From positions 1-61,186 of the IMG/VR virus record IMGVR_UViG_3300049347_000001: a stretch of DNA of 61,186 nt. One strand, written 5' to 3'. Of the stretch, positions 5,594-51,658 are shown piece by piece; position 1 is the stretch's first letter; every line of letters begins with the position of its first letter. The DNA comes from a virus. The notes beneath the pieces are model-generated. The model saw only the letters and a list, made by a program, of their open reading frames with translations, did not search any database and was not told where the DNA came from. A program made the translations under genes and the position numbers.

Positions 5594-6769
5594 TCAGGCG
5601 GTGGTCTCGGCCGGCTGCGGCTTGATGGCCTTCCACTCGTCGGCCTCGGCGTCGTAGACCACGAACGCGTTGTCGTCGACCCGGAAGTTGATCCCGGCCT
5701 GCTTCGCGTCGGTCAGCGCGCGGGCCAGGCGGACCGCCCACTTGCGGGGCTCCTCCGCCATCTGCTTGGCGACGCGCGCCTCATGGTCGTCCTGCCACTT
5801 CTGCGGGTTGAAGCCGGACTTCTCGGCGAGGTCCCACGCCCACTCGCCGAGCTCGCCGGAGTCGAGCTGCTCTGCCGTGTCGTCGACGACGGCCTGGGCG
5901 GCGCGCGGGTCGACCTGGGCGAGCGCATCCAGGTAGCGGTAGGCCTGCCAGTCAGAGACGCTCGCCTGGATATGGGCGAACCAGGCCTCGCGGTCGTCGT
6001 CGTAATCGGAGTTGAACGTGTCAGACGTCGACTTGAGGACGCCGCGGAGGAGTTCGGCGGCGGTCTCCTGCAAGTCCCGGGTGGCCTCGTAACGGGACGT
6101 CTCGGCCTGCGGCAGGTCCTCCATGGCGGCGCCCTTCGACCCGGCGGCGAGGGTCCAGCGCCAGGCGTCGAAGGCGGTCGCGAACGACTCCGTCTTGGCG
6201 GGTCCGAGTCCGGCGTAGCGGGCGGGCATCACGGCTCCGATGAAGTCCTCGCCGAAGAGGAGGGCGGCCTTCATGTCTGCGGTGAGGCGGACGCGGAGAA
6301 TGTCACCCGTGTCGAAGCGGGCGAGGTACCTGGAGTTCAGGCAGGGGAAGGGCTCGCCCTCGACGCTTTTCTCGGCGAGGGTACGGAGGATGCCCCGCCA
6401 GTCGGGGAAGTCGAGGGTCGCGTCCACGAGCACGTTGACCTCGGTCTTGTCGGCCTTGAAGGCGAGCCGCCCGTCGACGAGCTCAAGCCGGATCCAGTCG
6501 GCACCCTTCATGCCGCGGAGCCACTCGCGGACGGTTTCGACCTGGGCGGCGGGCAGGAGGGCGGCGAACGGCTCCTGGCTGAGGTCGTCGTGCAGGAGGC
6601 TGTAGCGGGCGACAGCGAGGGTGTACCGGTCGGACGCGAAAGCGTGCAGGTAGCGGGCGTCGACGTCGAAGCGGATGCCGTGGAGAACCTCCACGCGCTC
6701 GCTGGCCACGTGGCTGCTGGTCTTGTCGATGAGTCGACCGAGCTGGTGGGCGTTGATGGTGACGGACAA
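5594..6769 (-). CDS. DnaN (beta sliding clamp)-like domain protein with acidic C-terminal extension, 391 aa
   Basis: TTG 6769 with GGAGGA RBS 5 nt upstream. Residues about 30-190 (LHGIRFDVDARYLHAFASDRYTLAVARY ... LDFPDWRGIL ... FIGAVMPARY) follow the clamp pattern ATDGHRLA / FPDY / MPMR; the C-terminal 200 aa are unassigned. Confidence 0.55.
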   Translation of the reverse strand: MSVTINAHQLGRLIDKTSSHVASERVEVLHGIRFDVDARYLHAFASDRYTLAVARYSLLHDDLSQEPFAALLPAAQVETVREWLRGMKGADWIRLELVDGRLAFKADKTEVNVLVDATLDFPDWRGILRTLAEKSVEGEPFPCLNSRYLARFDTGDILRVRLTADMKAALLFGEDFIGAVMPARYAGLGPAKTESFATAFDAWRWTLAAGSKGAAMEDLPQAETSRYEATRDLQETAAELLRGVLKSTSDTFNSDYDDDREAWFAHIQASVSDWQAYRYLDALAQVDPRAAQAVVDDTAEQLDSGELGEWAWDLAEKSGFNPQKWQDDHEARVAKQMAEEPRKWAVRLARALTDAKQAGINFRVDDNAFVVYDAEADEWKAIKPQPAETTA

Positions 6770-10951: not shown

Positions 10952-12313
10952 GTGCCGGGATATATCGAAGACCGCTGGTACAAGAAGGGCCCGGACGGCA
11001 AGCGCAACGTCCCTACGGACAGGCACGGCCAGGGTAAACGCTATAAGGCCACCGGCATTCCAGGCGTGCGCGCCCGGTCCTTCCCCGACGGCAAGCTGAC
11101 TGCGGCGAAGAAGTGGCTGGCCGACGCCCAGACCGACAGCACGCGCGGAGAGTTCTACGATCCGCGGGACGGCACCATCACCCTCGACGCCTACGTGCGC
11201 AATCACTGGTGGCCGACCACCCGTTACCCTCCCACGACGAAGGCCTCCGTCAAGTCCAAGGTCTTCAACCACATCCTCCCGCACGTCGGCGCGCTGTCCC
11301 TGAACCGCATCGGGTTCGAGGAGATCCGCGCCTGGCAGACGCGCGCCGAGCGGGACATCGACGTCGGCACACTCGTCGTGACGTGGGCCCACTTCTCCTC
11401 GATCATGCAAGCGGCGTTCAAGGCGAAACGCATCCCCGCAAATCCATTCCGTGACGACGAGCTGAGAGCCCCGCGGCTGCCCAAGTCGAAAGCCCTGGCG
11501 TGGCCGCAGGAAACTGTGCTCGCCATCAGGTCGGCTCTGCCCGAGCGGTACCGCATCTTCGTCGACCTGGCGGTCGGCGCCGGCCTGCGGCAAGGGGAGA
11601 CGTTCGCCTTCTCCCCCGATGATGTCGACGGCGAGGACATCAACGTCGTCCGGCAGATCGTGAAGGTGGGCGGCCGGTTCGCGTTCGCGCCGCCGAAGGG
11701 CAACAAGGAGCGCGTCGCGCCCTGCGCGCCAGAGCTGGCGAAGGCCGTCAAGGAGTACGCCAACCGCTTCCCGTCGGTGGCCGTGACGCTCCCGTGGGTG
11801 GATCCCGACCGGCCGAACCTCGCCTGGGACGAGCGGCCGAAGCGCACAGTCCGGCTGCTCGTCACCACACAGTTCACGGCAGGCGCCAACGGCGGAGCGG
11901 TCACGAGGGACACGTTCAACGACCGGCAGTGGAAGCCGGCTCTGCGGAACGCGGGGCTGATCGACGCCCCGGACGTCACGTGGCACGAGCCGACGAACGG
12001 GAAGCAGCCCTGGCGCAAGGAGGTGTGGGCGATGCCGCGGGAGTTCGGCTTCCACGTCCTGCGCCACACGTTCGCTAGCGTCGTCCTGGCCGAGGGTGAG
12101 ACCATTACCCAGCTGGCTGCCTGGCTGGGGCACGCGGATCCGGCGTTCACGCTGCGGACCTACGTGCACTTCATGCCGAAGTCAGGGAGCCGAGGGCGGG
12201 CGGCCATCGGCCGGTTCATGACCGGCGAGCCGGCTGAGCCCGTAGGACTCCCCGGAGATATCCCTGAAATGGATCTCCCCAGATCCTCCCCAGAGATCGT
12301 TACCCACGACTGA
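10952..12313 (+). CDS. int: Tyrosine integrase, 453 aa
   Basis: Catalytic signature readable: VGAGLRQGE (R), HVLRHTFAS (HxxR), LGHADPAFTLRTYVH (H..Y); long N-terminal arm-binding-type region; adjacent to a non-coding attP-like gap. Confidence 0.9.
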   Translation: MPGYIEDRWYKKGPDGKRNVPTDRHGQGKRYKATGIPGVRARSFPDGKLTAAKKWLADAQTDSTRGEFYDPRDGTITLDAYVRNHWWPTTRYPPTTKASVKSKVFNHILPHVGALSLNRIGFEEIRAWQTRAERDIDVGTLVVTWAHFSSIMQAAFKAKRIPANPFRDDELRAPRLPKSKALAWPQETVLAIRSALPERYRIFVDLAVGAGLRQGETFAFSPDDVDGEDINVVRQIVKVGGRFAFAPPKGNKERVAPCAPELAKAVKEYANRFPSVAVTLPWVDPDRPNLAWDERPKRTVRLLVTTQFTAGANGGAVTRDTFNDRQWKPALRNAGLIDAPDVTWHEPTNGKQPWRKEVWAMPREFGFHVLRHTFASVVLAEGETITQLAAWLGHADPAFTLRTYVHFMPKSGSRGRAAIGRFMTGEPAEPVGLPGDIPEMDLPRSSPEIVTHD

Positions 12314-15220: not shown

Positions 15221-16249
15221 TCACAGGCCGATGTCCTCGGACGCGGCGTCGGTCCACTTGTCGGCTTCGCGGATGTAGCCCCAGAAGGCGGGGCTGTTGT
15301 CTGCGTGTCCGGACTGGGCGCGGATCTTCTCTTCGCGCTTCCCGGCGACTCGGCTGGCGGTGATGAATCCGGCCCGCATCGAGTGTCCGGTGAGGCGGAC
15401 GGCGAGCCCGGCGCGTTCGGCGTTGCGGGCGATGATCTCGCGGACGGCTTCCGGGGAGAGGTGGCCGGTGCCGAGGTTGCCCCAGATGTCGATGGCGACG
15501 AAGGCGGGCCCGGTCTCGATCCCGGCTGCGGCTTTCCAGGTGAGCCATGCGCGGACGGGGCAGGTGTCGGGGTTCTTGCCGTAGGCGACGGCGACGTTGC
15601 GGGGCGGTCGGCCTTTGACGGCGGGCACGTCCACGGCGAGGCCCTTGCTGCCGACGATGATGCTGTCGGCGCGGAGGGCGGCGACTTCGGCGGAGCGTCC
15701 GGCGATACCGAAGGCGAGGAGCCAGAGTGCGCGGTCGCGAAGTCCGGCGAGCCCTGCGGGTACGGCGGCGGCCATCTGCCGGAGCTGTTCGGGGGTGACG
15801 GCGGCGGCCTTGCCCCGTCCGCGCGCCATGCGTTCGGGGTCGTGCTTGAGCGGCTTGAGTGCCTGCCGCGCGGCGACGGTTGCGGCCTTGGGGACTTCGA
15901 CCCCATGTTCGTTCCGCGCGGTGACGGTGACGCCGGTGATCCGGCGGTCGATGCTGTTGGGTGCGGCGAGCTTAATGGTGTCGAGCCAGACGACGAACCC
16001 GACGAGCGTGCCCTTGGTGACGGCGGTCGAGGCGATCCGCTTGCCGGTGCGTTCCCCCAGCCAGTCGTGGAACTCCTCCCAGAGTGCCCAGTCGTTGGCG
16101 TAGCCGCGCTTCGTGTTGTGGGGACGAATGGCGTCGAGGTGCTTCTCGGCTGCCTCTTCCATAGCGGCGAGGACGGCGAGCGTCGCAGCGTCGTAGACGA
16201 CGGGGGTGGCGTCCGGGGCCCGCGTGACGATGTCGGTCACTCCTCGCAC
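15221..16249 (-). CDS. Second tyrosine recombinase (Cre/Xer-like), 342 aa
   Basis: AFGIAGRSAEVAALR (R), GHSMRAGFITA (HxxR), SGHADNSPAFWGYI (H..Y); N-terminus NTKRGYANDWALWEEFHDWL resembles a Cre/Xer core-binding domain. Alternative start GTG 16240 (GTGA overlap with upstream stop). Confidence 0.85.
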   Translation of the reverse strand: MRGVTDIVTRAPDATPVVYDAATLAVLAAMEEAAEKHLDAIRPHNTKRGYANDWALWEEFHDWLGERTGKRIASTAVTKGTLVGFVVWLDTIKLAAPNSIDRRITGVTVTARNEHGVEVPKAATVAARQALKPLKHDPERMARGRGKAAAVTPEQLRQMAAAVPAGLAGLRDRALWLLAFGIAGRSAEVAALRADSIIVGSKGLAVDVPAVKGRPPRNVAVAYGKNPDTCPVRAWLTWKAAAGIETGPAFVAIDIWGNLGTGHLSPEAVREIIARNAERAGLAVRLTGHSMRAGFITASRVAGKREEKIRAQSGHADNSPAFWGYIREADKWTDAASEDIGL

Positions 16250-38922: not shown

Positions 38923-39126
38923 GGATGATCACCCCCACCAGTCACTCGGAGTTATCGCAGGTCAGAGGCCTATCCCCTGGTCAGGGTAGTGAGCGCGCGC
39001 CTTCCGAGTTAACCGCGGCGGGGCCCGTGGAAAAAGATCTGGTGATTTTGACTCCCCTCCCCCTCGGGGAGGTCGGAAGCCAGAAAAGGCGGATCATCAA
39101 AGGCGAATTCGGACCCAAAATTGCCC
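38923..39126. other. Candidate cos region
   Basis: 204-bp lower-GC gap between HNH and TerS genes; hairpin CCTCCCC-ctc-GGGGAGG (39056-39072); A/T runs (ggaaaaagatctggtgattttgac). Confidence 0.4.
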
Positions 39127-39534
39127 TCAGAAAGCCCTTTTCGCGCTCCCTTTTCGAGCCCGATTGGCCCGCGCGGCCTCCGCTTTGCTCTTCTCCTCGT
39201 CGCACGGAGGGCACAGGAGGCCGAGGTTGTCGAGATCCTTGCGCGATCCGCCTTCGAAGATCGGCACGATGTGGTCCAGGACGAAGCGTTCAGCCTCTGG
39301 ATCATCAGCCATGACGTCCTCTTGGTCTGCTCCGCACCTGTAGCAGCATCCGTGATCGCGCTTGGTCACCCTGCGCTTGAGCTTGCGCCATTCACCTGAC
39401 GTGATCCCGTAGCGCGCCGCCTTGTCGTCCCTGCCTCGCCATGGAACGGGCTTGTGCTCGTCGCATCGCGAGCCCACCGTGGCGATCTCATGGCATCCAC
39501 CCTCGGTACACCGAGAAGGAGGAGAGGTAGGCAT
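39127..39534 (-). CDS. HNH endonuclease, 135 aa
   Basis: ATG 39534 with GGGGAGGGAGGG RBS; HGCCYRCG...LDHIVPIFEGGSRKDLDNLGLLCPPCDEEK = HNH/zinc-finger core; adjacent to the terminase. Confidence 0.85.
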   Translation of the reverse strand: MPTSPPSRCTEGGCHEIATVGSRCDEHKPVPWRGRDDKAARYGITSGEWRKLKRRVTKRDHGCCYRCGADQEDVMADDPEAERFVLDHIVPIFEGGSRKDLDNLGLLCPPCDEEKSKAEAARANRARKGSAKRAF

Positions 39535-39572
39535 CCCTCCCTCCCCTCTCCCCCTGGACGTTCCCCTGGCCC

Positions 39573-39953
39573 CTACTCGCCCTTCCCTACCCCTGTGGCT
39601 TCCCCATTGACCAGGGTGGCCAGGGTTCGCGCCTGGGCTTCCTTGCGAGCAGGTACAGGGCAGAGCATGACCTTGTCACCGTTCTCGATGGTGATGAACA
39701 GCTGGTTCATGTCCTTCTTCAGTGCGAGCGCGAACAGCCCTGTGAGGAGTACCCGGGTCGCTGTGACGCGCTTCCCAGCCTCTTCACCGCGCTCGATGGT
39801 GATACGGGCCCCTTCAGCAGGCACGGGATCCTGGTTGGGGGCCCTGAACTGGCCTCCCATGACGGTCAGACCGGCCGACGCGGCTGCTGCGGTGATCTGC
39901 CGCTGCCTTCTGGCCGCGGCCTTCTCTTCGTCACTCTTCTTGCTGCCGAACAT
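39573..39953 (-). CDS. Hypothetical protein, 126 aa
   Basis: ATG 39953; one hydrophobic helix (VLLTGLFALAL); no domain recognised. Confidence 0.6.
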   Translation of the reverse strand: MFGSKKSDEEKAAARRQRQITAAAASAGLTVMGGQFRAPNQDPVPAEGARITIERGEEAGKRVTATRVLLTGLFALALKKDMNQLFITIENGDKVMLCPVPARKEAQARTLATLVNGEATGVGKGE

Positions 39954-40014
39954 GCCCTGCCCCCACTGGTTGCGCGGTTGGAGCGTCCATCCTCGCGCGC
40001 GGGCGGGCCGTAGG

Positions 40015-40161
40015 TCAGCTGTTGGCGAGCCTGTAGGCCGTGAGTTTGAGTTCGGCGTTGTCGACGTCGATCTCCAGCGTGGTCCCGTAGTAGCGCACAG
40101 GGAAGGGCCCGATGCGGCGGACCTCCAGCCAGACGGCGGTGGTCTGGTCGTCGGTCGCTGG
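40015..40161 (-). other. 48-codon coding-like extension in frame behind the TGA stop of the fibre gene
   Basis: Own translation PATDDQTTAVWLEVRRIGPFPVRYYGTTLEIDVDNAELKLTAYRLANS*; 44 of 48 third positions are G/C; no ATG/TTG, only an internal GTG at 40088. Confidence 0.35.
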
Positions 40162-41367
40162 TCAGGTCCAAGTGCCGGGCGTGCCGGGCGCAGTGCACAG
40201 GTGCCAGGCCCCTGCCGAGTCGAGGACTACGTCGCCGGTGGTCCACGCGCCGGTCGTCGGCGCCCCGGCCGAGTTCTTGAAACCGGCAAGGCGGATGTTC
40301 GCCAGCCCGTTCTTCTTCCCGAGTTCAGCTACGCCCGTGCTGGCGTCGAGGGCGTGGACCACGTCGAAGCCGCCGGTGCCGAAAATACTGCGGCCCATGA
40401 GGTGCGGTCCGTCGGCAGCGAGCCTCAGGAGAGTGACCTGGGTGCCGTCGAATCCTGCGCCGGAGAAGCGGCTGAGGTAGAGGTCTTTCCCGCCGACCTC
40501 GAAGTCGAATTCGCCGCCGTCAGAGCGGAGCCGGAACCCGCCGGCGTCGTCGCCGCGGAGGACGGTGAGGTTGCCGCCGTCGATGACGAGGCTTCCGGTG
40601 AGGGTGCCGCCGGCGAGGGACAGTAGGGCTGCGAGGGCTGCGGCGAGACCGGCCACCTGGTCCTGGGTCACGGTGATTTCGTCGCTGCTGCCGTCGCCGT
40701 GGGATGCGGCGTGTGGGCTGGGGGTGCGCGCGTTGGTGAGCCGCGGGTCGGTGGTGGCGACGAGGGCCCCGGTGTCGGGGATGCCGTGGACGCCGGTGGT
40801 GTCGGCGGCGTGGGTGGTCACTGCGGTGTCGGTGTACGCCTCGGCGTCCGCGGTCGATCCGTCGGCTCCGGGCGGGCCTTGCAATCCGGTCGGCCCGGTG
40901 TCGCCCGGGGGTCCTTCGGGCCCGACGAGAGAGGCCAGCCATTCGGTGACCGTGCCGGTGTAGCCCTCGTCGACGGCCACCTCGTAGGCGGACTGGCCGG
41001 GCTGCCCGGTGGTGCCACCGCCCGGGGCCTGCGCGGGGACGAGGCTGTCGAGGTGGATGGTGGCGCCGTCGGCGCCGAGGATGTCGGCCCAGAACGCTGT
41101 GCGCCGGCCCCTGTTGGGCTGGATGTCGACGTACCAGCGCCAGCCTGCCGGTTCGATGCCAGCCGCGTTGTTGGGGATGAGGTCGACCTCGAACGCGCCG
41201 TCGACAATGTCCGTCTTGCCGCCGCCGGGATAGATGGCGTGCCGGGCCTCGTCGGTGAGCAGCGCGGACGGGGTGAGGACGACCTGCCCGCCGAACCCGG
41301 TACCGGCAACGGCGGAGGGCAACGTGCCGGTCAGGGTGACAACAGGGGTTCCTGCGGGGAACGCCAT
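40162..41367 (-). CDS. Collagen-repeat tail-fibre-like protein, 401 aa
   Basis: ATG 41367 after GGAGGTG; Gly-X-Y run GPEGPPGDTGPTGLQGPPGADG; Gly/Thr-rich beta C-terminus. Located upstream of the packaging genes, not in the tail module. Confidence 0.7.
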   Translation of the reverse strand: MAFPAGTPVVTLTGTLPSAVAGTGFGGQVVLTPSALLTDEARHAIYPGGGKTDIVDGAFEVDLIPNNAAGIEPAGWRWYVDIQPNRGRRTAFWADILGADGATIHLDSLVPAQAPGGGTTGQPGQSAYEVAVDEGYTGTVTEWLASLVGPEGPPGDTGPTGLQGPPGADGSTADAEAYTDTAVTTHAADTTGVHGIPDTGALVATTDPRLTNARTPSPHAASHGDGSSDEITVTQDQVAGLAAALAALLSLAGGTLTGSLVIDGGNLTVLRGDDAGGFRLRSDGGEFDFEVGGKDLYLSRFSGAGFDGTQVTLLRLAADGPHLMGRSIFGTGGFDVVHALDASTGVAELGKKNGLANIRLAGFKNSAGAPTTGAWTTGDVVLDSAGAWHLCTAPGTPGTWT

Positions 41368-41427
41368 GAACACCTCCCGGCAGGACGAGCCCCGCCGCCC
41401 GGACAGGGTGAACGGACGACGGGACGA

Positions 41428-41655
41428 TCAGGCGGCCTTGGCGCCGGACGGCAGCGCGGGAGGCTTGCCGGTCTCGAGCAGTTCACGTGTGTACTCGTCG
41501 CGGCGCCCGTGGGGAAGGTCGTGCACGAGGTAGCGGGCCTGCTTGCCCTTGCCGGTCTTCGAGATGCGCCCTTCGGAGGCCCAGCGCCAGATGGTGCCGA
41601 CGGGAACGCCCGCGTACCAGGCGGCATCCGAGGCCGTGACGTAGCCGGGAGGCAT
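41428..41655 (-). CDS. Excisionase-family (HTH_17) DNA-binding protein, 75 aa
   Basis: ATG 41655 with GGGGGAGGTGA RBS; YVTASDAAWYAGVPVGTIWRWASEGRI. Confidence 0.65.
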   Translation of the reverse strand: MPPGYVTASDAAWYAGVPVGTIWRWASEGRISKTGKGKQARYLVHDLPHGRRDEYTRELLETGKPPALPSGAKAA

Positions 41656-41787: not shown

Positions 41788-42294
41788 CTACTGCCGGTCG
41801 TCGTGGGCGAGTCCGGCGGCCTGGTCGAGGTAGCGGGTGGCGGTGCGGGCGGTGCCGTGTGCGTCGTTCCAGGCGGGCACGGAGACGGCGTCCGGGAAGT
41901 CGCGGCGGATGGCTTCGAGGAGCACGGTCATTGCCGTGTCGATGTGGCTGCCGCCGGCGCCTGCGGTTCGGAGGGCGCCGTACAGGCAGAGTTGGCGGTC
42001 CTCGCCGTGCATGGAGCCGGCGCACCAGCCGCGCTCCTCCAGCAGCACGCGGGCGTCGTGCAGGAGGGCGGCCACGGGATTGGTGTACGGGCAGGCCGCG
42101 GGCGGCAGGATCGGCGCTGCGGTGATGTGGGGGATGGCGCCGGTGTCGGGGAGGTGGGCGGTGTTGACCTCGAAGGCGACGGCGGCCTCGTCGAGGCGGA
42201 CGGTCATGGCGGCGTCGACGAGGGCGAGGCGCGCGTCGAGGTCGAGGGCGACTCGGGTGGGCCGGCTTGCTGTCGCCGCGGTGGTCGTGGTCAT
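41788..42294 (-). CDS. Hypothetical protein, 168 aa (DUF6197-like, from memory)
   Basis: Track ORF 41788..42426 trimmed to ATG 42294; ..LLEERGWCAGSMHGEDRQLCLYGALRTAG... Confidence 0.55.
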   Translation of the reverse strand: MTTTTAATASRPTRVALDLDARLALVDAAMTVRLDEAAVAFEVNTAHLPDTGAIPHITAAPILPPAACPYTNPVAALLHDARVLLEERGWCAGSMHGEDRQLCLYGALRTAGAGGSHIDTAMTVLLEAIRRDFPDAVSVPAWNDAHGTARTATRYLDQAAGLAHDDRQ

Positions 42295-42662: not shown

Positions 42663-43067
42663 TCAGACGCGCCAGCCGCCGAGGCGGGGACGCTTCTTCG
42701 GGTCGGAGCTGTCGCGGACCTGCTTGTCGAGGCCGCGGAGTTCGGCGTGGTCGAGGATGGCCTCGTAGCCGGCCGGGAGCGGTCCGGCGACCTGGGGGGC
42801 GGCGTCGGCGATGTTGCGGATGCCGCGGGGCTTCTCCTCGTGGACGGGGCCGAAGTTCTGGCAGAGGGTTTCGGCGGAGTAGCCGGTTGCGGTGCAGGGG
42901 GTGCCGGTGAACGGCAGGTGGCCGGTGAACGTGTAGGCGCTGGCGAGCTGGGCGTCCTCGTAGGGGGCGCGGCGGCGATCGATGTTCATGACGATCCAGT
43001 AGGTCTTTCCGAGCTGCAGTTGGCGGGCGAACTTGCGGGCGTCGCCGCGGTTCCAGGTCTTGGGCAT
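42663..43067 (-). CDS. Hypothetical protein, 134 aa (first gene after the TGAGCAG array)
   Basis: ATG 43067 with GGAGCC RBS. Confidence 0.6.
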   Translation of the reverse strand: MPKTWNRGDARKFARQLQLGKTYWIVMNIDRRRAPYEDAQLASAYTFTGHLPFTGTPCTATGYSAETLCQNFGPVHEEKPRGIRNIADAAPQVAGPLPAGYEAILDHAELRGLDKQVRDSSDPKKRPRLGGWRV

Positions 43068-43104
43068 GGGTGTGGCTCCGATTCGTTTTTGTGGTGGTTT
43101 GTTC

Positions 43105-43260
43105 CTGCTGCTCAGCCCCGCTCAGCAGGAAAAGGTGCAGGCCAGGGCTGCTCACAGGTCTGCTCGGGTGCTGCTCTGAGCAGATGTTGAGCAGGCTGTG
43201 AGCAGCGGACTGAGAGGCTGTGACCTGCGTGTTCTCTTCCTGAGCAGAGCTGAGCAGGCT
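43105..43260. repeat. Dyad-symmetric array of TGAGCAG / CTGCTCA heptamers
   Basis: TGAGCAG at 43177, 43188, 43199, 43241, 43251 (variant TGAGAGG 43211); CTGCTCA at 43108, 43148 (variants CTGCTCG 43160, CTGCTCT 43171, TCAGCAG 43122); 10-12 bp phasing; orientation switches at 43177. Confidence 0.7.
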
Positions 43261-43290
43261 CTAATCAGGGGTGCATTCTTCGCGTACCGG

Positions 43291-45564
43291 TCACAGTAGG
43301 TGGCGGAGACGATCACGCTTGAAGCCCCGCGGGCTCTTCTCCTCGCCGATCGGCCCGAGCGTGATCGGCGACCCGGCGCCCGCCTTCTTCATCAGCGCCT
43401 TGAACGCATCGACGTCCATCTCGCCGTAGGCGTCGGGGTCGTACTCCTGCAGGGCGGCGAGCAGCGGCTCCGTCTTCATCCGGTCGACGTCCGCCTTGAG
43501 CATCACGTCCACCGCGCCCTGGACCGCAGCCCGCGCCGGACCGTCCGTCAACTCCGAACCGGCCGGCGGCTCGGCGCCGCACAGGCGCAGCAGATGCTCC
43601 CAGGTGAGGAGTTCGACCGGGGCCGGCTTCTTGATCACGCCGTCCTTGTCGTACTCGGGCTCGACGTACTCGGGCAGGTCAACGCCCCGCATCCCGTCGA
43701 GACTGTCCTGGTCCGGGTCGAGGAGCCCCGCTTCGAAGCGCTCCTCGGCGAGCTTGCGCAGCACGTCGGACGGCGTCTCGTGTACGGCGTACTCGATCGG
43801 CTCGTCAGGCCGTCCCGGCACGCCCTGCAGGTAGATGTGGCCCGCGTCCTTGGCGTCGGTGTCGGTGGCCGGGGACAGCCGGTGCGGGAGGTAGCCCTCC
43901 TTCACCGAGCCGTCGCCGAACACTGCGCGGGTGTCGCCGACCTTGCAGGGGCCAACCGCTTTGAGGGCCACCATCTGGGCGAAGTTCTCGCCGAGGTAGC
44001 CCTTCTGGCCGCCCTGCGAGGCGATCTCCAGCTCGATGAGTTCCTTGCGGCCGACGAGCAGCAGGTCGAACGCCAACTGCTTGGCGAGCGCGGTGCCCTT
44101 CGGGAACTCGTCGAAGAAGATCGTGACTGCCGGGTGGGTGGGGCTGGCTTTCCACTTCTTTCCCATGCCGAGCTTCTGCCGCAGCCGGGCTCGCGCCTTG
44201 GACATGACGAGGAAGAACAGCAGGACGGCTTCGATCTGTTCGTTGGTGCGGGCGGTGATCCGTACCGCGGCGCCGAGGTCTTCGAGGCCGTCGCCGTGCG
44301 GATCGAGGTCGATGGTGATGTTGTCGCGGCAGGCGGTGGTGCCTTCGGCGAGGGCTTGGAGGATGCCGGTCTTGCCGCCGCCGGAGGCAGCGACCCACAG
44401 GCCCATGACGCCGGCGAGGGACAGTTCGAGGGGGTCGCCGCCGACGCTGGTGCCGATGCGGAACCGGTCGGTGATCGACAGGGACTTGGGGGCGCGGTAC
44501 GGGAGGCTGGGAGCGGTGGCGAACGGGTCGCCGGACACGAGGCGCAGGATGGCGCAGGCGCGTCGGGCTTGGAGGGGCTGGGGTCGGACGCCGTTGGTGG
44601 GCAGGTCGAACTTCGTCTCGAGGTCACCACTCTTCTCGATGATCGCCTCGGGAGTGCCGTCGGAGACGCGGACGACGCACTGCCAGCCCCACGGCTGCCG
44701 AACCACGTCCGACACCTCGACGATCGGCACGTTCTCGGCGCGGACGGCGAGGAGGACGCACTGGGCGAGCTGGTCAGGCGTGTGCGCGTTCCGCAGAGGG
44801 AACGGCTTGGCGTCGGCGGCGAGCTGCTCGACGTTCATGACGACGCCGCTCATTCCGGGCATCACCGCTCCCCCGGCCGGGCCCGCCTGGAACGTGGCGG
44901 GCAGGCTGCCGGTCGGGGTCGTCACGAAAGGGATCTCCACCCCCTCGGCGGTACGCGCCGTGAAGGGGCGGCTGATCAGGTACCAGCCGTACCCGGCAGC
45001 AGCTCCGAGCGCGGCAAGAAGCACCGGCTGCCCAGTGGCGGCCTGTTCGATGGCCGCACCGAGGGCGGGAACGGCGGCGATGCCTCCACCGGCGACGATG
45101 GCGGCCCGGCTGGCCTTCTTCCCCGTTCGTGCGGCGTTGATCTCGCGGTCGGTGGGCGGGAGAAGCGGTGTTGCCTGCATCCCGGCGAGTCGGGCCTCCT
45201 CGGCGGCGACCCTGCCGCCGAGCGAGGCGAGCGCCCCGGCGTTGCCGCCGGTCTCGCCGGCCTCGGCGTGGGCCTTGGCCACGGCGAACCGGGCGTGGGC
45301 TTCGGCGACGAGCCGCTGCTGTTGAGCGATCCGCTCGGTGTATTTGCGGGTCTTGGTGTCGGTGGCGAGCTGGATGGCGGTGACCTGGTCTATGTCTCCG
45401 GTGGCGAGCCAGTTCCGCATCCGGGCGCCGACGTGGCCGCGCTGCTCAGTGAAGGCGACCTTGGCCTGCTTGCTGCGGCTCGGCGTTGATGCGGTCGGCG
45501 GCTCGGCGGGCATGGGCGGGACTGCTGGCTTCTCGACGGGGGTGGGTCCGGTCTCGGTGGCCAC
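43291..45564 (-). CDS. FtsK/SpoIIIE-family (TraB/TraSA-like) membrane-anchored DNA translocase, 757 aa
   Basis: Track ORF 43291..46245 trimmed to GTG 45564 (the upstream 227 codons are Arg-rich and overlap the next gene; hairpin 45592-45613 in the gap). Two TM helices, Walker A LWVAASGGGKTG, Walker B VTIFFDEFP. Confidence 0.8.
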   Translation of the reverse strand: MATETGPTPVEKPAVPPMPAEPPTASTPSRSKQAKVAFTEQRGHVGARMRNWLATGDIDQVTAIQLATDTKTRKYTERIAQQQRLVAEAHARFAVAKAHAEAGETGGNAGALASLGGRVAAEEARLAGMQATPLLPPTDREINAARTGKKASRAAIVAGGGIAAVPALGAAIEQAATGQPVLLAALGAAAGYGWYLISRPFTARTAEGVEIPFVTTPTGSLPATFQAGPAGGAVMPGMSGVVMNVEQLAADAKPFPLRNAHTPDQLAQCVLLAVRAENVPIVEVSDVVRQPWGWQCVVRVSDGTPEAIIEKSGDLETKFDLPTNGVRPQPLQARRACAILRLVSGDPFATAPSLPYRAPKSLSITDRFRIGTSVGGDPLELSLAGVMGLWVAASGGGKTGILQALAEGTTACRDNITIDLDPHGDGLEDLGAAVRITARTNEQIEAVLLFFLVMSKARARLRQKLGMGKKWKASPTHPAVTIFFDEFPKGTALAKQLAFDLLLVGRKELIELEIASQGGQKGYLGENFAQMVALKAVGPCKVGDTRAVFGDGSVKEGYLPHRLSPATDTDAKDAGHIYLQGVPGRPDEPIEYAVHETPSDVLRKLAEERFEAGLLDPDQDSLDGMRGVDLPEYVEPEYDKDGVIKKPAPVELLTWEHLLRLCGAEPPAGSELTDGPARAAVQGAVDVMLKADVDRMKTEPLLAALQEYDPDAYGEMDVDAFKALMKKAGAGSPITLGPIGEEKSPRGFKRDRLRHLL

Positions 45565-45623
45565 GGGAGCGTGTCCTTCCAGGGGTTGGGTGCGGGGCCC
45601 GGGTTGGCCCCGCCGGGGTGTGG

Positions 45624-46079
45624 CTACAGGCCGCCGAGGACGTTGCCGAGGGAGCTGACGACGGAGGCGGTGAGCTGGTCGCCCATAGCGCCGACGACGG
45701 TGCCGGACAGGGCGATGCCGAACAGGCCGACGAGGACGGCGTCCCCGGGCTTGATGTCGCGGTGCTTGACCCGGACGAACACGATGATCCCGAGGACGAG
45801 AATCGCTACAACGCCGGCTCCGATCACCCCTCCCGAGGCCTGGGTCTGGACCTGGTCGCCGTAGCCGGCCGGGGCCTGCTGCGGTGCCTGCAAGGGGGCG
45901 CCCTGACCGCCGTTGGGGGTGAGGCCGTTGCCGATGCCGGGCTGGGTGTCGGTGCGGGCGATTGCGATGACGGTCGTCTCGTGCTCGACGGCGTCGGCGG
46001 TGGCGATCGTGGCGGCGCTCCCGACGAGGGCGACAGCGGCGGCGGTCGAGACGGCGGCGCGGCGAAGAGTGGAGTTCAT
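45624..46079 (-). CDS. Secreted/membrane protein (signal peptide + C-terminal TM segments), 151 aa
   Basis: ATG 46079 with AGGAGA RBS; MNSTLRRAAVSTAAAVALVGSAATIATA signal-like; later GVIGAGVVAILVLGIIVFV. Confidence 0.65.
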   Translation of the reverse strand: MNSTLRRAAVSTAAAVALVGSAATIATADAVEHETTVIAIARTDTQPGIGNGLTPNGGQGAPLQAPQQAPAGYGDQVQTQASGGVIGAGVVAILVLGIIVFVRVKHRDIKPGDAVLVGLFGIALSGTVVGAMGDQLTASVVSSLGNVLGGL

Positions 46080-46102
46080 GGCGGGTATCTCCTGAGGGTG
46101 GG

Positions 46103-47473
46103 TTAGCTGGCGCTCGGGCGGGAGTTGTTGCGGCGCAGAAGCTCTGCGTGGGCGCGGCCGGCGGCGCGGGTGTAGCGGGGCGTGTCACCGGCTTTACGGA
46201 CGGGCGGAACGGGCTTGTACGAGGACCGGGGTGTTTGGATCGCACGCTGGGCGTTCGTGTTCTTGCTGAGGGTGTTCACGCGGGTGCCGGTGAGGGCGGA
46301 TTCGACGCGCTTTTCGGCAGCCCGGCGGGCAGTGATGGACTCGATGGACTCGCCGGGTTCGCAGCCGTGGATGTTCCGGTATGCGCGCGGCCACACGGCC
46401 GGGTCGTCGGGCTCCTTGCCGAGAGCGGCGCCGATCTTCACGGCCTCTTCCCACACCGTCTTGAACACGGTCTGTCGGATGCCGCGCAGTTCCTGCCGCG
46501 CTTTCTCGGCGGCCTGGTCCGCGGCCTCCTTCTCCGCCCGCTTCTCCTTGGCCTCAGCGGCTTGCCGCTTGGCCTCCTTGTCAGCCTGTTTCTGGGCGGC
46601 ACGCTGCTGCCGCCACGACAGCTTCCCGTCCAGCTTGCGGATGCGACCGTGCTCGTGGAGGTCCCACATGCCGGGGCCGGCGACCGAGGCCAGGGCCGTT
46701 CCGAAGGCGGTCGCCGGGTCGAAGGCGCCGAGCCCGTGAACGATGTTGATCGACGCGGCGGTCAGGGCGCCGACCCAGGCGACGAGGCGGTAGTGCCACT
46801 GCGGGCGCCCGTCCGTCACCGCGGCGGCAGCACCGACGAGAGCGACCAGCGCGATCACCTCGATGAAGAGCGGGGCGACGAGCAGGTACTTTGCGGTCGG
46901 GTCGTAGAACGCGGCCATCTGCACAGGGAGGGCGACCGCAGCGCACAGGGCGTAGAAGGCGAGGGCGACGTTCCGCCAGCGCGTGCCGGACTTCTCGACG
47001 GCCTCCGCCTGCTCGGCCTCGGTCTGCTGTTCCTCCTCGGCGTCCCGGGCGGCTTGCTCGCGGGCGCGGTCGGCTTCCTCACGGCGCCGCTGATGCTCGG
47101 CGATCCGTGCGTCGGACGCGGCCTTCTCTTCTGCGGCCTTGCGTTCGGTCCGGTCGTTGGCGAGGCGCTGCTTGCGGGCGTCCTCCTCGGCCTTGACGCG
47201 AATCGCCTCAGCTTCGGCTTCCGCCTTGATGCGGCGCTCTTCCTTCTCCGCTTCGGCGGCGAGCCGCTTCTTCTCCGACTCGGCCCACGCCTGGGCGCGG
47301 ATCGCTTCGGCCTTGGCCTGGGCGACGAGGTCGTTGTCGCCCGCCTCGGCGGGCGACGCCGGAGCGGTGGTGGCTTCGGCCAGTGTGGTGGGGGCGGCCT
47401 GTATGGGCTGCCAGTCACCCAGCACGGGCGGGACGGGCCTAGCGTGGCCGTTCACCTGCGGGCTGGCAGTCAT
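46103..47473 (-). CDS. Coiled-coil + polytopic membrane protein (DUF2637-like, from memory), 456 aa
   Basis: Trimmed to ATG 47473; EKEERRIKAEAEAEAIRVKAEEDARKQR coiled coil, then 4 TM (VALAFYALCAAVALPVQMAAF.., LLVAPLFIEVIALVALVGAAAAV, ..), basic C-terminus. Confidence 0.6.
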   Translation of the reverse strand: MTASPQVNGHARPVPPVLGDWQPIQAAPTTLAEATTAPASPAEAGDNDLVAQAKAEAIRAQAWAESEKKRLAAEAEKEERRIKAEAEAEAIRVKAEEDARKQRLANDRTERKAAEEKAASDARIAEHQRRREEADRAREQAARDAEEEQQTEAEQAEAVEKSGTRWRNVALAFYALCAAVALPVQMAAFYDPTAKYLLVAPLFIEVIALVALVGAAAAVTDGRPQWHYRLVAWVGALTAASINIVHGLGAFDPATAFGTALASVAGPGMWDLHEHGRIRKLDGKLSWRQQRAAQKQADKEAKRQAAEAKEKRAEKEAADQAAEKARQELRGIRQTVFKTVWEEAVKIGAALGKEPDDPAVWPRAYRNIHGCEPGESIESITARRAAEKRVESALTGTRVNTLSKNTNAQRAIQTPRSSYKPVPPVRKAGDTPRYTRAAGRAHAELLRRNNSRPSAS

Positions 47474-50609: not shown

Positions 50610-51245
50610 GTGGACGTCGTAACGTGGACCGGCCGCGACGCATGCGCCTTGCAGCAGGCCCTCCGCATGACGAACGACGACTTCGCCGACCACCTCGGCG
50701 TCGCCGTGCGCACGGTGGCGAACTGGCACTCCTCCCCCGGCACCGTGCCACGAACCGAGATCCAATCCGCCCTGGACACCGCTTACGAGAGGTCGACCGC
50801 ATCGGTGCAACGACGCTTCAGTCTTCTAACCCGCCCCGGCCCTGGTGCCGTCGAGGCGCAGGCCCTGCGGGTAGCGATCGCCGTAGTCCTGCGCGGAGAT
50901 GACGTGCTCCTCGTCTGCCGTCGCGGGGACGGCGAGATCCGCTGGCAGTTCCCCGCCGGCATGGTCAAGCCCGGCGCAGACCCTGCCGCCGTGGCCGCGC
51001 AGGAGACGCACGGCGAGACGGGCGTGCACTGCCGGGTCCGCGAGCAGCTGGGCGAGCGCGTACACCCGGTCACGGGCGTCGTGGCCACGTACTACCTGGC
51101 CGAGCACCTCGCGGGCGAGGCGGCCAACCGGGACCCGCTGGAGAACATCGACGTCACCTGGGCGCCCCGCTCGACCCTGACCCGCTTCATCCCCGCCGAC
51201 CAGATCTTCCCGCCCATCCTGAGCGCCTTGGAGGTTGCCGCATGA
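50610..51245 (+). CDS. XRE-type HTH fused to a degenerate Nudix domain, 211 aa
   Basis: Track ORF 50550..51245 trimmed to GTG 50610 (AAGGGG RBS). WTGRDACALQQALRMTNDDFADHLGVAVRTVANWHS = HTH; Nudix-box region GMVKPGADPAAVAAQETHGETGV lacks the first E, the R of RE and one E of EE. Confidence 0.7.
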   Translation: MDVVTWTGRDACALQQALRMTNDDFADHLGVAVRTVANWHSSPGTVPRTEIQSALDTAYERSTASVQRRFSLLTRPGPGAVEAQALRVAIAVVLRGDDVLLVCRRGDGEIRWQFPAGMVKPGADPAAVAAQETHGETGVHCRVREQLGERVHPVTGVVATYYLAEHLAGEAANRDPLENIDVTWAPRSTLTRFIPADQIFPPILSALEVAA

Positions 51246-51658
51246 CGACCGAGACGAAGACCGAGAAGCCCGGCATCTCCGCGGCCATCATCGTGGACCA
51301 GGGCTGCGTGCTCATGGTCAGGCGGGCCGTGAAGGAGGGCGAACTCTCCTGGCAGTTTCCGGCCGGCGCGATCGAGGCCGGGGAGGCGGCCGACGAGGCG
51401 GCGGTGCGGGAGACGCTCGAGGAGACTGGCCTGACAGTCAAGGCGATCCGGCAGATCGGCTACCTGGAATCCCACCCGAAGTCCGGCCGGGAGATGTTCT
51501 ACACGGCCTGCGAGGTTCTCCAGGGCGAGGCCAAGGTCGCCGACGCTGACGAGCTGGACGCGGTCGCCTGGGTGACGCTGGAGGAGATCCCGCAGTACGT
51601 GCCCTACGGGCTGTTCGGGCCGGTGCAGGAGTACCTCGACGCCACCCTCGGTCGTTGA
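51242..51658 (+). CDS. Nudix hydrolase with canonical Nudix box, 138 aa
   Basis: ATGA overlap with the previous gene; GAIEAGEAADEAAVRETLEETGL fits GX5EX7REUXEEXGU exactly. Confidence 0.85.
   Translation: MTTETKTEKPGISAAIIVDQGCVLMVRRAVKEGELSWQFPAGAIEAGEAADEAAVRETLEETGLTVKAIRQIGYLESHPKSGREMFYTACEVLQGEAKVADADELDAVAWVTLEEIPQYVPYGLFGPVQEYLDATLGR

What the first reader, a model, noticed from the sequence alone, without database searches (positions are those of the whole stretch)
43291..47473. TraB/FtsK-like translocase with two membrane partners just upstream of the late operon
Three consecutive genes form the module. The first is a 456-aa coiled-coil plus 4-TM protein (DUF2637-like). The second is a 151-aa protein with a signal peptide and TM segments. 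The third is a 757-aa protein with 2 TM helices, Walker A (ASGGGKTG), Walker B (IFFDEFP) and a helical C-terminal region that could be a winged-helix DNA-recognition domain. Streptomyces plasmids and AICEs transfer dsDNA with exactly such a single FtsK-like pump plus Spd membrane proteins. In a phage the module could instead serve superinfection exclusion, DNA delivery between hyphal compartments, or genome segregation.
Basis: partly seen in the sequence, partly recalled or inferred. Interest (0 to 1): 0.65.

Follow-up and report, generated by a model that had tools for sequence, protein, structure and literature searches.

The report
Plasmid-type DNA pump module in prophage
A temperate Streptomyces phage carries the DNA-pumping gene set that Streptomyces plasmids use to move double-stranded DNA between hyphae, together with its probable DNA loading site, so this phage lineage may spread its genome through a mycelium without virus particles.

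Summary
The three genes exist as described, on the minus strand: A 46103-47473, B 45624-46079, C 43291-45564. C has no Pfam or NCBIfam hit. A profile of its family matches the FtsK motor (PDB 2ius, E 7e-20) and the transfer protein Tra of plasmid pIJ101 (hhalign 99%). Its AlphaFold model superposes on FtsK motors (E 1e-14). More distant relatives sit in GntR-controlled tra operons of Streptomyces plasmids. A is homologous to the DUF2637 membrane protein encoded just upstream of the TraB-like gene on plasmid pFP1 (98%). It has the coiled-coil plus four-helix layout published for SpdB2. B is a variable accessory.

It holds 7 of the window's 14 CTGCTCA heptamers: five direct and five inverted copies around a GCAGGTCA/TGACCTGC core. 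The same layout follows C relatives in 46 prophage loci and on plasmids, and the repeat sequence differs between clades. This matches the clt transfer sites of Streptomyces plasmids.

The C-terminal domain looks like a winged helix but is not detectably related to FtsK-gamma or to the pIJ101 Tra C-terminus.

Verdict: a plasmid-type TraB/SpdB2/clt module fixed in an uncultured prophage lineage. Its function, probably virion-independent spread of phage DNA, is inferred.

The parts
46103..47473 (-). Gene A, 456 aa. SpdB2-like/DUF2637-like membrane protein: charged coiled-coil-like N-terminus (about residues 55-165), 3-4 transmembrane helices (about 172-275), second charged stretch and C-terminal domain.
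   Evidence: ORF, hydropathy. hhalign of its family against the pFP1 DUF2637 protein encoded upstream of the TraB-like gene: prob 98.2, E 6e-14. 7 of 20 close homologues hit PF10935 below threshold. UniRef names for close homologues are 'SpdB2 protein' and 'DUF2637 domain-containing protein'. Upstream of C in most related prophage loci.
45624..46079 (-). Gene B, 151 aa. Small membrane protein with a signal-like N-terminus (..ATADA), a Pro/Gly/Gln-rich stretch and two transmembrane helices. Variable accessory of the module.
   Evidence: No Pfam, PHROG, NCBIfam or PADLOC hit. Found by tblastn only in the subclade whose C has the same N-terminus (L006-L017, L047-L054, L056, L057; 34-82% identity). 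Not detected in the other related loci.
43291..45564 (-). Gene C, 757 aa (740 aa if started at ATG 45513). TraB/FtsK-like dsDNA translocase: N-terminal helical region, two transmembrane helices, disordered linker, alpha+beta motor and C-terminal winged-helix-like domain.
   Evidence: phrog_12531 'FtsK/SpoIIIE-like', E 2e-67. Family profile against PDB FtsK 2ius, E 7e-20. hhalign against pIJ101 Tra, prob 99.0, E 4.5e-18. hhalign against the E. coli FtsK motor, prob 98.5, E 2e-15. AF2 model pLDDT 87. Foldseek FtsK motor E 2.5e-14, TM 0.67-0.68.
44974..45105 (-). Transmembrane hairpin of C (residues 154-197).
   Evidence: Hydropathy. Helices 139-175 and 180-198 in the model.
43690..44817 (-). Motor domain of C (residues about 250-625). 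Walker A ASGGGKTG is at 44365-44388 and Walker B IFFDEFP is at 44101-44121.
   Evidence: K398, R458, D485 and E486 are invariant and Q517 nearly so in 75 relatives. This region aligns to the FtsK alpha/beta domains.
43294..43602 (-). C-terminal domain of C (residues 655-757): helix, strand, helix, helix, then a beta-hairpin wing carrying the conserved P-R-G-F/Y motif. T735 is a candidate specificity residue.
   Evidence: Models. The top Foldseek hits are all winged-helix domains but are not significant (best E 0.12). No sequence match to pIJ101 Tra C-terminus or FtsK-gamma. The residue at position 735 tracks the 3' end of the heptamer.
43068..43290 (-). clt-like repeat array in the C-D intergenic gap.
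- Five direct CTGCTCA copies (43251-43257, 43241-43247, 43199-43205, 43188-43194, 43177-43183).
- Five inverted TGAGCAG-like copies (43171-43177, 43160-43166, 43148-43154, 43118-43124, 43108-43114).
- Core inverted repeat: GCAGGTCA at 43221-43228 and TGGCCTGC at 43137-43144.
   Evidence: 7 of the window's 14 exact copies lie in 223 bp, against 0.03 expected (Poisson P 5e-15). The same architecture is found in 46 related loci. Distant clades and plasmids carry it with other repeat sequences. Base-pair covariation does not support a conserved hairpin.
42663..43067 (-). Gene D, 134 aa, unknown function. The usual gene after the array in related prophages, but replaceable.
   Evidence: No Pfam, PHROG, NCBIfam or PADLOC hit and no tblastn match in sequenced phages or plasmids.
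41788..42294 (-). DUF6197 gene, 168 aa. Frequently syntenic with the module.
   Evidence: PF19698, E 2e-19. Found downstream of C and D in most related loci.

Best explanation
The module is a plasmid-type Streptomyces dsDNA transfer and spread apparatus carried by a temperate siphophage.

Proposed mechanism:
- C is a membrane-anchored hexameric FtsK/TraB-type pump.
- Its C-terminal winged-helix-like domain recognises the heptamer array just downstream of its own gene, which acts as a clt-type loading site.
- The motor then pumps double-stranded phage DNA, either excised or replicating, through a membrane or septal channel.
- A, the SpdB2/DUF2637-like protein, helps form that channel. B is a dispensable accessory.
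- The likely outcome is movement of phage genomes across hyphal cross-walls, and possibly into contacting hyphae, without virions.

Shown here: the homology and fold of C, the homology of A to plasmid tra-linked proteins, the existence and conservation of the array, and its tight linkage to the translocase gene.

Inferred: binding of C to the array, hexamer formation, time of expression, and the biological outcome.
For: 1. C belongs to the FtsK/TraB motor clade.
- Family profile against FtsK 2ius, E 7e-20; EccC and TcpA rank lower.
- hhalign against pIJ101 Tra, prob 99.0, E 4.5e-18.
- Foldseek against the FtsK motor, E 2.5e-14 over about 420 columns.
- Catalytic residues are invariant.

2. Relatives at 31-45% identity are encoded on Streptomyces plasmids. 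They sit in operons divergent from a GntR regulator, next to Prim-Pol/DUF927 or ParB genes. This is the classical tra layout.

3. A is homologous to the DUF2637 protein immediately upstream of the TraB-like gene on pFP1 (prob 98.2). The same DUF2637-then-translocase order is seen on three plasmids. A's layout equals that published for SpdB2: N-terminal coiled coil, four TM helices and a C-terminal domain (PMC4447253).

4. The array.
- 7 of 14 CTGCTCA copies lie in 223 bp.
- In 46 related loci the 230 bp after the stop codon holds a 7-mer repeated a median of 7 times. The median is 2 in 3645 control windows. A count of 5 or more occurs in 33 of 46 array windows and in 1.5% of controls.
- Distant clades keep the layout but use other 7-8-mers, such as GGTCGTGA, GGGCGTGA, CCGTGACG, GATCCGTC and GCCGATC.
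- Plasmids pFP1, CP108056 and HF10 plas1 have GCAGGTCA, then repeats, then TGACCTGC, right after their TraB-like gene.
- The array stays where gene D is replaced.
- Published clt sites are arrays of 7-9-bp direct repeats with inverted repeats. In pWTY27 the clt abuts the 3' end of the tra gene and is bound by the Tra protein (PMC3583192; PMC4447253).

5. The wing residue at position 735 (T, Q, or S/P/G) goes with heptamers ending in TCA, TAG or TCG in 30 of 34, 5 of 6 and 4-5 of 5 loci. This holds across different sequence backgrounds.

6. A-C-array synteny is kept in about 50 prophage loci.
Against: - No experiment bears on function.
- The C-terminal domain has no significant structural or sequence match to FtsK-gamma or to the pIJ101 Tra wHTH, so DNA binding is inferred from topology and covariation only.
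- Four loci with a near-identical C-terminus (GSPITLG) carry degenerate CTGATCG-type arrays.
- The covariation is confounded by shared ancestry.
- No GntR-type TraR/KorA regulator was found next to the module. Only part of the window was scanned.
- A does not match pIJ101 SpdB, and no pSVH1 SpdB2 sequence was available to test directly.
- The array is also the 5' leader of gene D, so it could instead be regulatory.
Confidence: 0.55

Rival explanations
1. The translocase works as proposed but serves lysogeny rather than spread. It would pump or clear phage or prophage-bearing DNA through closing sporulation septa or cross-walls, so that every compartment or spore inherits the element. This would be an FtsK/SpoIIIE-like segregation role.
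For: C is about as similar to chromosomal FtsK (hhalign E 2e-15) as to pIJ101 Tra (E 4.5e-18). Oppositely oriented repeat sets meeting at a centre recall the way FtsK recognition motifs converge on dif (my knowledge of FtsK).
Against: The element has an integrase, so an integrated prophage segregates with the chromosome. The heptamer is not enriched outside the array: 7 copies elsewhere against about 8.5 expected in the whole window. A genome-wide polar guide is therefore absent. The nearest cellular-context relatives are plasmid tra genes, not chromosomal ftsK.
Confidence: 0.15
2. The repeat array is not a loading site for C. It would be an operator, promoter or terminator that controls gene D and the downstream genes and is bound by another protein. 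C would act without sequence specificity.
For: The array lies in the 5' leader of D, next to a conserved leader and ribosome-binding sequence. The single strand folds well (-45.7 kcal/mol, z -3.8). Four loci with the same C-terminal sequence have different repeats.
Against: The array follows the translocase gene in plasmids and in prophages where D is replaced by unrelated genes. Spacers between the repeats vary without compensatory changes, and RNAalifold keeps only the invariant core (covariation term -0.29). There is no U-tract terminator or sigma-70-like promoter. The repeat sequence changes with the clade of C.
Confidence: 0.15
3. The module is a superinfection-exclusion or defence device expressed from the prophage. 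A membrane ATPase with membrane partners would block or expel incoming DNA.
For: The proteins are membrane-located. FtsK/HerA-type ATPases occur in some defence systems (HerA entries appear among weak PDB hits).
Against: None of A, B, C, D, the 81-aa protein or the DUF6197 protein hits PADLOC. HerA matches are far weaker than FtsK or Tra matches. A self-encoded cognate repeat array, and homology to plasmid tra modules, are not expected for exclusion.
Confidence: 0.08
4. The module is inert cargo: a captured fragment of an AICE or plasmid with no role for the phage.
For: Its closest functional relatives are plasmid genes. No isolated phage in the collection carries A, D or a full-length C.
Against: The module sits at the same place, in the same order and with intact catalytic residues in about 50 prophage loci whose C proteins are only 56-82% identical. 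This indicates long retention under selection.
Confidence: 0.05

Closest known systems
Streptomyces conjugative plasmid TraB/Tra with Spd proteins and clt (pSVH1, pIJ101; Thoma et al. 2015, PMC4447253)
   Same: A single membrane-anchored FtsK-like pump. An adjacent multi-pass membrane protein with the SpdB2 layout. A cis site made of short repeats. The motor is homologous to pIJ101 Tra.
   Different: It sits in a siphophage genome with terminase, portal, capsid and tail genes. No GntR kil-kor partner was seen nearby. The C-terminal DNA-recognition domain is unrelated in sequence to that of pIJ101 Tra. No Pfam FtsK_SpoIIIE hit, whereas pIJ101 Tra has one.
pFP1-type plasmids (pFP1 NC_006912, CP108056, HF10 plas1): DUF2637 protein followed by a TraB-like translocase
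   Same: Same gene order, DUF2637-like protein then translocase. Homologous A and C (31-34% identity). Same downstream architecture of GCAGGTCA, repeats, TGACCTGC.
   Different: At least the CP108056 plasmid protein has an N-terminal FtsK-gamma domain, which the phage protein lacks. The plasmids have GntR regulators and a run of small downstream genes that may correspond to spd genes. Their repeat sequences differ.
pWTY27 TraA and its clt (Wang et al. 2012, PMC3583192)
   Same: The clt abuts the 3' end of the tra gene. It is about 175 bp long, contains four copies of a 7-bp direct repeat plus inverted repeats, and is bound by the Tra protein.
   Different: Different repeat sequence. It is a plasmid, not a phage.
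FtsK/SpoIIIE with KOPS/SRS recognition by the gamma domain
   Same: Homologous alpha/beta motor. Short DNA words are recognised by a C-terminal winged helix (my knowledge of FtsK).
   Different: The motif is confined to one 223-bp site rather than spread over the genome. The C-terminal domain is not a gamma domain.
FtsK-like proteins of large lytic Streptomyces phages (Jay2Jay, Wofford and others; phrog_12531)
   Same: 36-37% identical over the motor, residues 253-621. The literature notes them only as 'FtsK-like' without a function.
   Different: The Jay2Jay protein has 602 aa, stands alone among tRNA genes, has no A-like neighbour and has no repeat array downstream. Its C-terminal region does not align with that of C.
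SpdB2 homologues noted in actinophages phiC31 and VWB, and the plasmid-phage pZL12 with a tra locus
   Same: [quoted passage not shown]
   Different: A gives no tblastn match in any sequenced phage. pZL12 did not appear among the plasmid hits, and its paper could not be read. No paper in the library describes a translocase, an SpdB2-like gene and a clt-like array together in an integrating prophage.

Membership tests
FtsK/SpoIIIE-type motor (FtsK-HerA superfamily) | RecA-like beta domain with Walker A Lys and Walker B Asp-Glu, preceded by the FtsK alpha domain | tested here: met
   Profile against 2ius, E 7e-20. Foldseek 6t8o/2iut/2ius, E 1e-14 to 1e-13, TM 0.67-0.68 over about 420 columns. 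K398, D485 and E486 invariant.
FtsK/SpoIIIE-type motor (FtsK-HerA superfamily) | Match to Pfam PF01580 (FtsK_SpoIIIE) at the curated threshold | tested here: not met
   No Pfam hit even at E 5. pIJ101 Tra hits PF01580 at 9e-10 in the same run. The family is a divergent branch that only profile or fold comparison detects.
Streptomyces TraB/Tra conjugative translocase | Sequence homology to an experimentally characterised Tra protein | tested here: met
   hhalign of the 75-sequence family against pIJ101 Tra: prob 99.0, E 4.5e-18, 294 columns. Pairwise BLASTP E 3e-6.
Streptomyces TraB/Tra conjugative translocase | N-terminal membrane anchor with a cytoplasmic motor | tested here: met
   Two hydrophobic helices at 154-197 before the motor. 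Topology itself was not computed.
Streptomyces TraB/Tra conjugative translocase | [quoted passage not shown] | tested here: inconclusive
   The topology is helix, strand, helix, helix, wing, and all top Foldseek hits are winged helices, but the best E is 0.12. No sequence match to the pIJ101 Tra C-terminus or FtsK-gamma. A wing residue covaries with the repeat.
Streptomyces TraB/Tra conjugative translocase | Cognate cis-acting locus (clt) of short repeats on the same replicon | tested here: met
   The candidate array at 43068-43290 is conserved in layout and clade-specific in sequence. It also follows plasmid homologues. Binding was not tested.
Streptomyces TraB/Tra conjugative translocase | Adjacent GntR-type repressor (TraR/KorA) forming a kil-kor pair | tested here: not met
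   None among the ten proteins scanned around the module or the ten scanned elsewhere. The window was not scanned exhaustively. Plasmid relatives do have one.
Streptomyces TraB/Tra conjugative translocase | Mediates transfer of dsDNA between hyphae | not testable with these tools
   Needs mating or spread assays.
SpdB2 / DUF2637 membrane proteins | N-terminal coiled coil, four transmembrane helices and a C-terminal domain, encoded next to the translocase gene | tested here: met
   Layout from hydropathy; the fourth helix is weak. The published SpdB2 layout is in PMC4447253. Adjacency is conserved.
SpdB2 / DUF2637 membrane proteins | Sequence membership (PF10935 or homology to pSVH1 SpdB2) | tested here: inconclusive
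   A itself gets no PF10935 hit. 7 of 20 close homologues hit below threshold, best 8e-5. hhalign against the pFP1 protein annotated DUF2637: prob 98.2. That protein itself scores below the Pfam cut-off (18.5 against 22.8 bits). No match to pIJ101 SpdB.

The most novel reading that the evidence does not exclude
A widespread lineage of temperate Streptomyces siphophages has a second route of transmission that needs no virions. After excision or replication, a plasmid-derived TraB-like pump loads on a dedicated clt-like array in the phage genome. Together with an SpdB2-like channel protein, it pumps naked double-stranded phage DNA across cross-walls, and possibly into neighbouring mycelia. The element would then behave both as a virus and as a conjugative element.
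Probability: 0.4. Interest if true: 0.85.

Novelty: new variant of a known kind. Interest (0 to 1): 0.65.

Why it matters
Streptomyces grows as a compartmented mycelium. How an infection or a prophage spreads between compartments is poorly understood.

Plasmids solve this problem with TraB, Spd proteins and a clt site. That Spd-like proteins might help phage DNA spread has so far been a one-line speculation (PMC4447253).

Here the pump, the channel-type partner and a candidate loading site are found together. They are conserved in about 50 prophage loci, and the cis element is shared with plasmids. This turns the speculation into direct experiments:
- Binding of the C-terminal domain to a defined 223-bp site.
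- Mobilisation of a plasmid that carries the array.
- Transfer of capsid-defective prophages.

The work also defines a previously undescribed clt architecture for a Pfam-invisible branch of TraB-like translocases. The architecture is GCAGGTCA, then direct repeats, then inverted repeats, then TGACCTGC. It could improve annotation of Streptomyces plasmids, AICEs and prophages.

Tried and rejected
- Direct searches with C against Pfam, NCBIfam and PDB sequences gave nothing useful. Only a family profile and the predicted structure worked.
- Megablast of the module against sequenced phages: no match.
- The search for related loci with the 75-sequence alignment failed because no block was conserved enough. 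A 14-sequence alignment worked.
- A conserved RNA or DNA hairpin as the explanation of the array was rejected. The single strand folds well, but across 32 loci only the invariant core pairs are kept and the covariation term is -0.29. Some loci, for example L015, have arms that are not complementary.
- Gene D as the partner of the array was rejected because the array persists where D is replaced.
- A genome-wide KOPS-like role was rejected because the heptamer is not enriched outside the array.
- A defence-system reading: no PADLOC hit.
- The EF-hand reading suggested by one UniRef name and by weak centrin hits was rejected. The scores are marginal and the model shows a winged-helix layout.
- No tRNA gene or Rfam family in the window.
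- The pZL12 paper could not be read, and pZL12 was not among the plasmid hits.
- Proteins P0234, P0248 and P0221, which share only the C-terminal domain, have no Pfam domain and so gave no clue to its function.

Full report
**The window.** It has about 70% G+C and most genes lie on the minus strand. It encodes:
- small and large terminase subunits, portal, major capsid and tape-measure proteins;
- a tyrosine integrase at 11066-12313 and a second tyrosine recombinase at 15221-16249;
- a DnaB-like helicase, an IstB/DnaC-like loader, an antirepressor and two NUDIX enzymes.

It is therefore a temperate siphophage or prophage of a Streptomyces-type host. The nearest terminase in sequenced phages is only 63% identical and comes from an Arthrobacter phage. 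The lineage has no isolated representative in that collection.

**The observation.** The three genes are real and at the stated coordinates.
- A is 46103-47473 (456 aa), B is 45624-46079 (151 aa) and C is 43291-45564 (757 aa). The public gene call for C starts 17 codons later.
- C has two weakly hydrophobic helices at residues 154-197.
- A has a long charged N-terminal stretch, three clear hydrophobic helices and one weaker one, and a second charged stretch.
- B has a signal-like N-terminus and two hydrophobic helices.
- The module is separated from the small terminase gene by five genes and a 1.2-kb stretch without a confident gene call. 'Just upstream of the late operon' is approximate.

**What C is.** C alone matches nothing in Pfam, NCBIfam or PDB sequences. 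It does match phrog_12531, 'FtsK/SpoIIIE-like', at E 2e-67.

An exhaustive search of 1.8 billion cluster representatives found only 223 relatives, so the family is narrow. A 75-sequence alignment shows K398, R458, D485 and E486 invariant and Q517 nearly so.

The profile of this alignment gives these matches:
- E. coli FtsK motor 2ius at E 7e-20, followed by EccC/EssC and the pCW3 coupling protein TcpA;
- pIJ101 Tra, the classical Streptomyces transfer protein, at hhalign probability 99.0 and E 4.5e-18;
- the E. coli FtsK motor at probability 98.5 and E 2e-15.

The AlphaFold model has pLDDT 87. It superposes on FtsK motor structures over about 420 columns (E 2.5e-14, TM 0.67-0.68). Its order is N-terminal helices, a transmembrane hairpin, a disordered linker (201-236), the alpha and beta motor domains and a small C-terminal domain.

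**Genomic relatives of C.**
- Close relatives (56-82% identity) lie in Streptomyces chromosomes and in IMG/VR prophage predictions of 46-88 kb.
- Relatives at 31-45% identity lie on Streptomyces and Kitasatospora plasmids.
- Where the context could be read, the gene sits in an operon divergent from a GntR regulator. Prim-Pol/DUF927 replication genes or ParB are nearby. This is the layout of Streptomyces tra operons.
- The large lytic Streptomyces phages such as Jay2Jay and Wofford share only the motor (36-37%). The Jay2Jay gene stands alone among tRNA genes.

**What A and B are.** A gets no significant Pfam or PHROG hit.
- Its family matches the 480-aa protein encoded just upstream of the TraB-like gene on plasmid pFP1, annotated as DUF2637. 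The match has probability 98.2 and E 6e-14 over 185 columns and covers the membrane region and the domain after it.
- The same order, DUF2637 protein then translocase, occurs on CP108056 and HF10 plas1.
- Seven of 20 close homologues of A touch PF10935 below threshold.
- UniRef calls two of the close homologues 'SpdB2 protein' and 'DUF2637 domain-containing protein'.
- The layout of A equals that published for SpdB2 of pSVH1: an N-terminal coiled coil, four transmembrane helices and a C-terminal domain. SpdB2 is a pore-forming, DNA- and peptidoglycan-binding protein needed for spreading within the mycelium (PMC4447253).
- A does not match pIJ101 SpdB, and no pSVH1 sequence was available. Membership in SpdB2 proper therefore stays open.
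- B has no hits. tblastn finds it only in the subclade whose C has the same N-terminus, and the spacing of the A and C matches elsewhere leaves little room for a gene between them. B is an accessory, not a core partner.

**The new finding: a repeat array after C.** The 223-bp gap between C and the next gene (43068-43290) holds 7 of the window's 14 exact CTGCTCA heptamers. About 0.03 would be expected there (Poisson P 5e-15).

Read on the gene strand, the array consists of:
- two direct copies;
- the octamer GCAGGTCA;
- three more direct copies, with the copies within each group 10-11 bp apart;
- a centre of symmetry;
- three inverted copies;
- TGGCCTGC, which is one mismatch from TGACCTGC;
- two more inverted copies;
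- the leader of gene D.

**Conservation of the array.**
- In 46 distinct related loci the gap has the same size and layout.
- The most frequent 7-mer in the 230 bp after the stop codon occurs a median of 7 times, against 2 in 3645 control windows of the same loci. A count of 5 or more occurs in 33 of 46 array windows and in 1.5% of controls.
- The repeat differs between lineages: CTGCTCA, CTGATCA, CTGCTCG and CTGCTAG/CTGGTCG.
- Clades only 34-47% identical in C use unrelated words: GGTCGTGA, GGGCGTGA, CCGTGACG, GATCCGTC and GCCGATC. The cores are often retained.
- Plasmids pFP1, CP108056 and HF10 plas1 show GCAGGTCA, then lineage-specific direct and inverted repeats, then TGACCTGC, immediately after their TraB-like gene.
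- The array persists where gene D is replaced by unrelated genes.

**Hairpin or binding sites.** The single strand folds into a long hairpin (z -3.8). Across 32 loci, however, only the invariant core pairs survive in the consensus structure and the covariation term is -0.29. Spacers vary freely. This is the signature of an array of protein-binding sites, not of a conserved hairpin.

**Comparison with known clt sites.** Published clt loci of Streptomyces plasmids are made of 7-9-bp direct repeats with inverted repeats. In pWTY27 the clt abuts the 3' end of the tra gene and is footprinted by the Tra protein. In pSVH1 the C-terminal winged helix of TraB reads 8-bp repeats (PMC3583192; PMC4447253). 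The array found here fits that description in position, size and composition.

**The C-terminal domain.**
- Modelled alone it has pLDDT 81 (90 or more over the last 80 residues). Its order is helix, strand, helix, helix, then a beta hairpin carrying the conserved P-R-G-F/Y motif.
- Every top Foldseek match is a winged-helix domain (Fur, Rex, ROQ, forkhead, ORC, and the pCW3 relaxosome accessory protein 5vfy), but none is significant (best E 0.12).
- It has no sequence relation to the C-terminus of pIJ101 Tra or to the C-terminal, gamma-containing region of E. coli FtsK.
- The residue in the first wing strand, T735 in P-I-T-L-G, goes with the 3' end of the heptamer. T or A goes with TCA in 30 of 34 loci, Q with TAG in 5 of 6, and S, P or G with TCG in 4-5 of 5. 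Both T and Q occur in two different sequence backgrounds.
- This suggests direct readout. It is confounded by ancestry, and four loci with GSPITLG carry degenerate CTGATCG arrays.

**Mechanism.**
- Shown: a TraB/FtsK-type motor with intact catalytic residues and a membrane anchor; an adjacent protein homologous to the plasmid tra-linked DUF2637/SpdB2-like protein; a clade-specific repeat array tightly linked to the translocase gene in phages and plasmids alike.
- Inferred: C forms a hexamer in the membrane, its C-terminal domains load it on the array, and it pumps double-stranded phage DNA through a channel to which A contributes. This would move phage genomes across cross-walls or into contacting hyphae.
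- The time of expression is unknown. No sigma-70-type promoter or intrinsic terminator was found around the module.

**Rivals.** The alternatives are a segregation role in lysogens, a purely regulatory role of the array, superinfection exclusion (no PADLOC hit) and inert cargo. The last is contradicted by conservation in about 50 loci.

**What is known and what is new.**
- FtsK-like genes in large lytic Streptomyces phages are noted in the literature without a function.
[quoted passage not shown] I could not read that paper.
- I found no description of a translocase, an SpdB2-like partner and a clt-like array together in integrating prophages, nor of the GCAGGTCA/TGACCTGC-bracketed architecture. 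These searches cover only the held library.
- I rate the finding a new variant of a known kind: the Streptomyces TraB/Spd/clt system in a phage setting, with a divergent motor, a different DNA-recognition domain and a newly defined cis site.

Noticed in passing
L002:6954-9545 (plasmid CP108056): This plasmid's TraB-like protein (863 aa) has an FtsK-gamma domain (PF09397, E 2e-18) at its N-terminus, residues 20-73, instead of at the C-terminus. Its motor barely touches PF01580.
   Followed up: no
window 43221-43228 and 43137-43144; L002, L003, L083 and most distant loci: The octamer pair GCAGGTCA/TGACCTGC brackets the variable repeats downstream of TraB-like genes. The 7-mer CAGGTCA/TGACCTG occurs in that region in 19 of 28 distant loci. 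These include plasmid and genomic loci from Streptomyces, Kitasatospora and Amycolatopsis. What recognises this invariant core is unknown.
   Followed up: partly
window 40162-41373 (-): A 403-aa protein with collagen-like Gly-X-Y repeats hits tail-fibre PHROGs. It lies upstream of the terminase genes, away from the tail module at about 18-28 kb.
   Followed up: no
window 38923-40161: A stretch of about 1.2 kb between the tail-fibre-like gene and the small terminase gene has no ORF passing the GC3 filter. Only lower-confidence minus-strand ORFs are present (39127-39534, 39573-39953). It could hold the cos/pac site or an HNH-type gene.
   Followed up: partly
window 50610-51658 (+): Two consecutive NUDIX hydrolase genes lie on the opposite strand to almost all other genes, between the early region and the module. 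A NUDIX gene also lies near the tra region of plasmid HF10 plas1 (L083:18325-19107).
   Followed up: no
window 15221-16249 (-) and 11066-12313 (+): The window has two tyrosine-recombinase genes: a 415-aa integrase and a second 342-aa integrase-like protein about 3 kb away.
   Followed up: no
window 5594-6769 (-): A 391-aa protein matches the central domain of the DNA polymerase III beta clamp (PF02767, E 8e-7). It also weakly matches a PHROG labelled RusA-like.
   Followed up: no
P0234, P0248, P0221 (proteins of 691-795 aa from the representative search): These proteins share only the last 75 or so residues with C, namely the winged-helix-like domain with the NPRGF/Y wing. They have no Pfam domain. 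The domain seems to be a mobile module on other uncharacterised proteins.
   Followed up: partly
window 41428-41655 (-) and 41788-42294 (-): An HTH_17 (MerR/excisionase-like) protein and a DUF6197 protein follow the module. They are syntenic with it in many related prophages, so the conserved block may be larger than three genes.
   Followed up: partly
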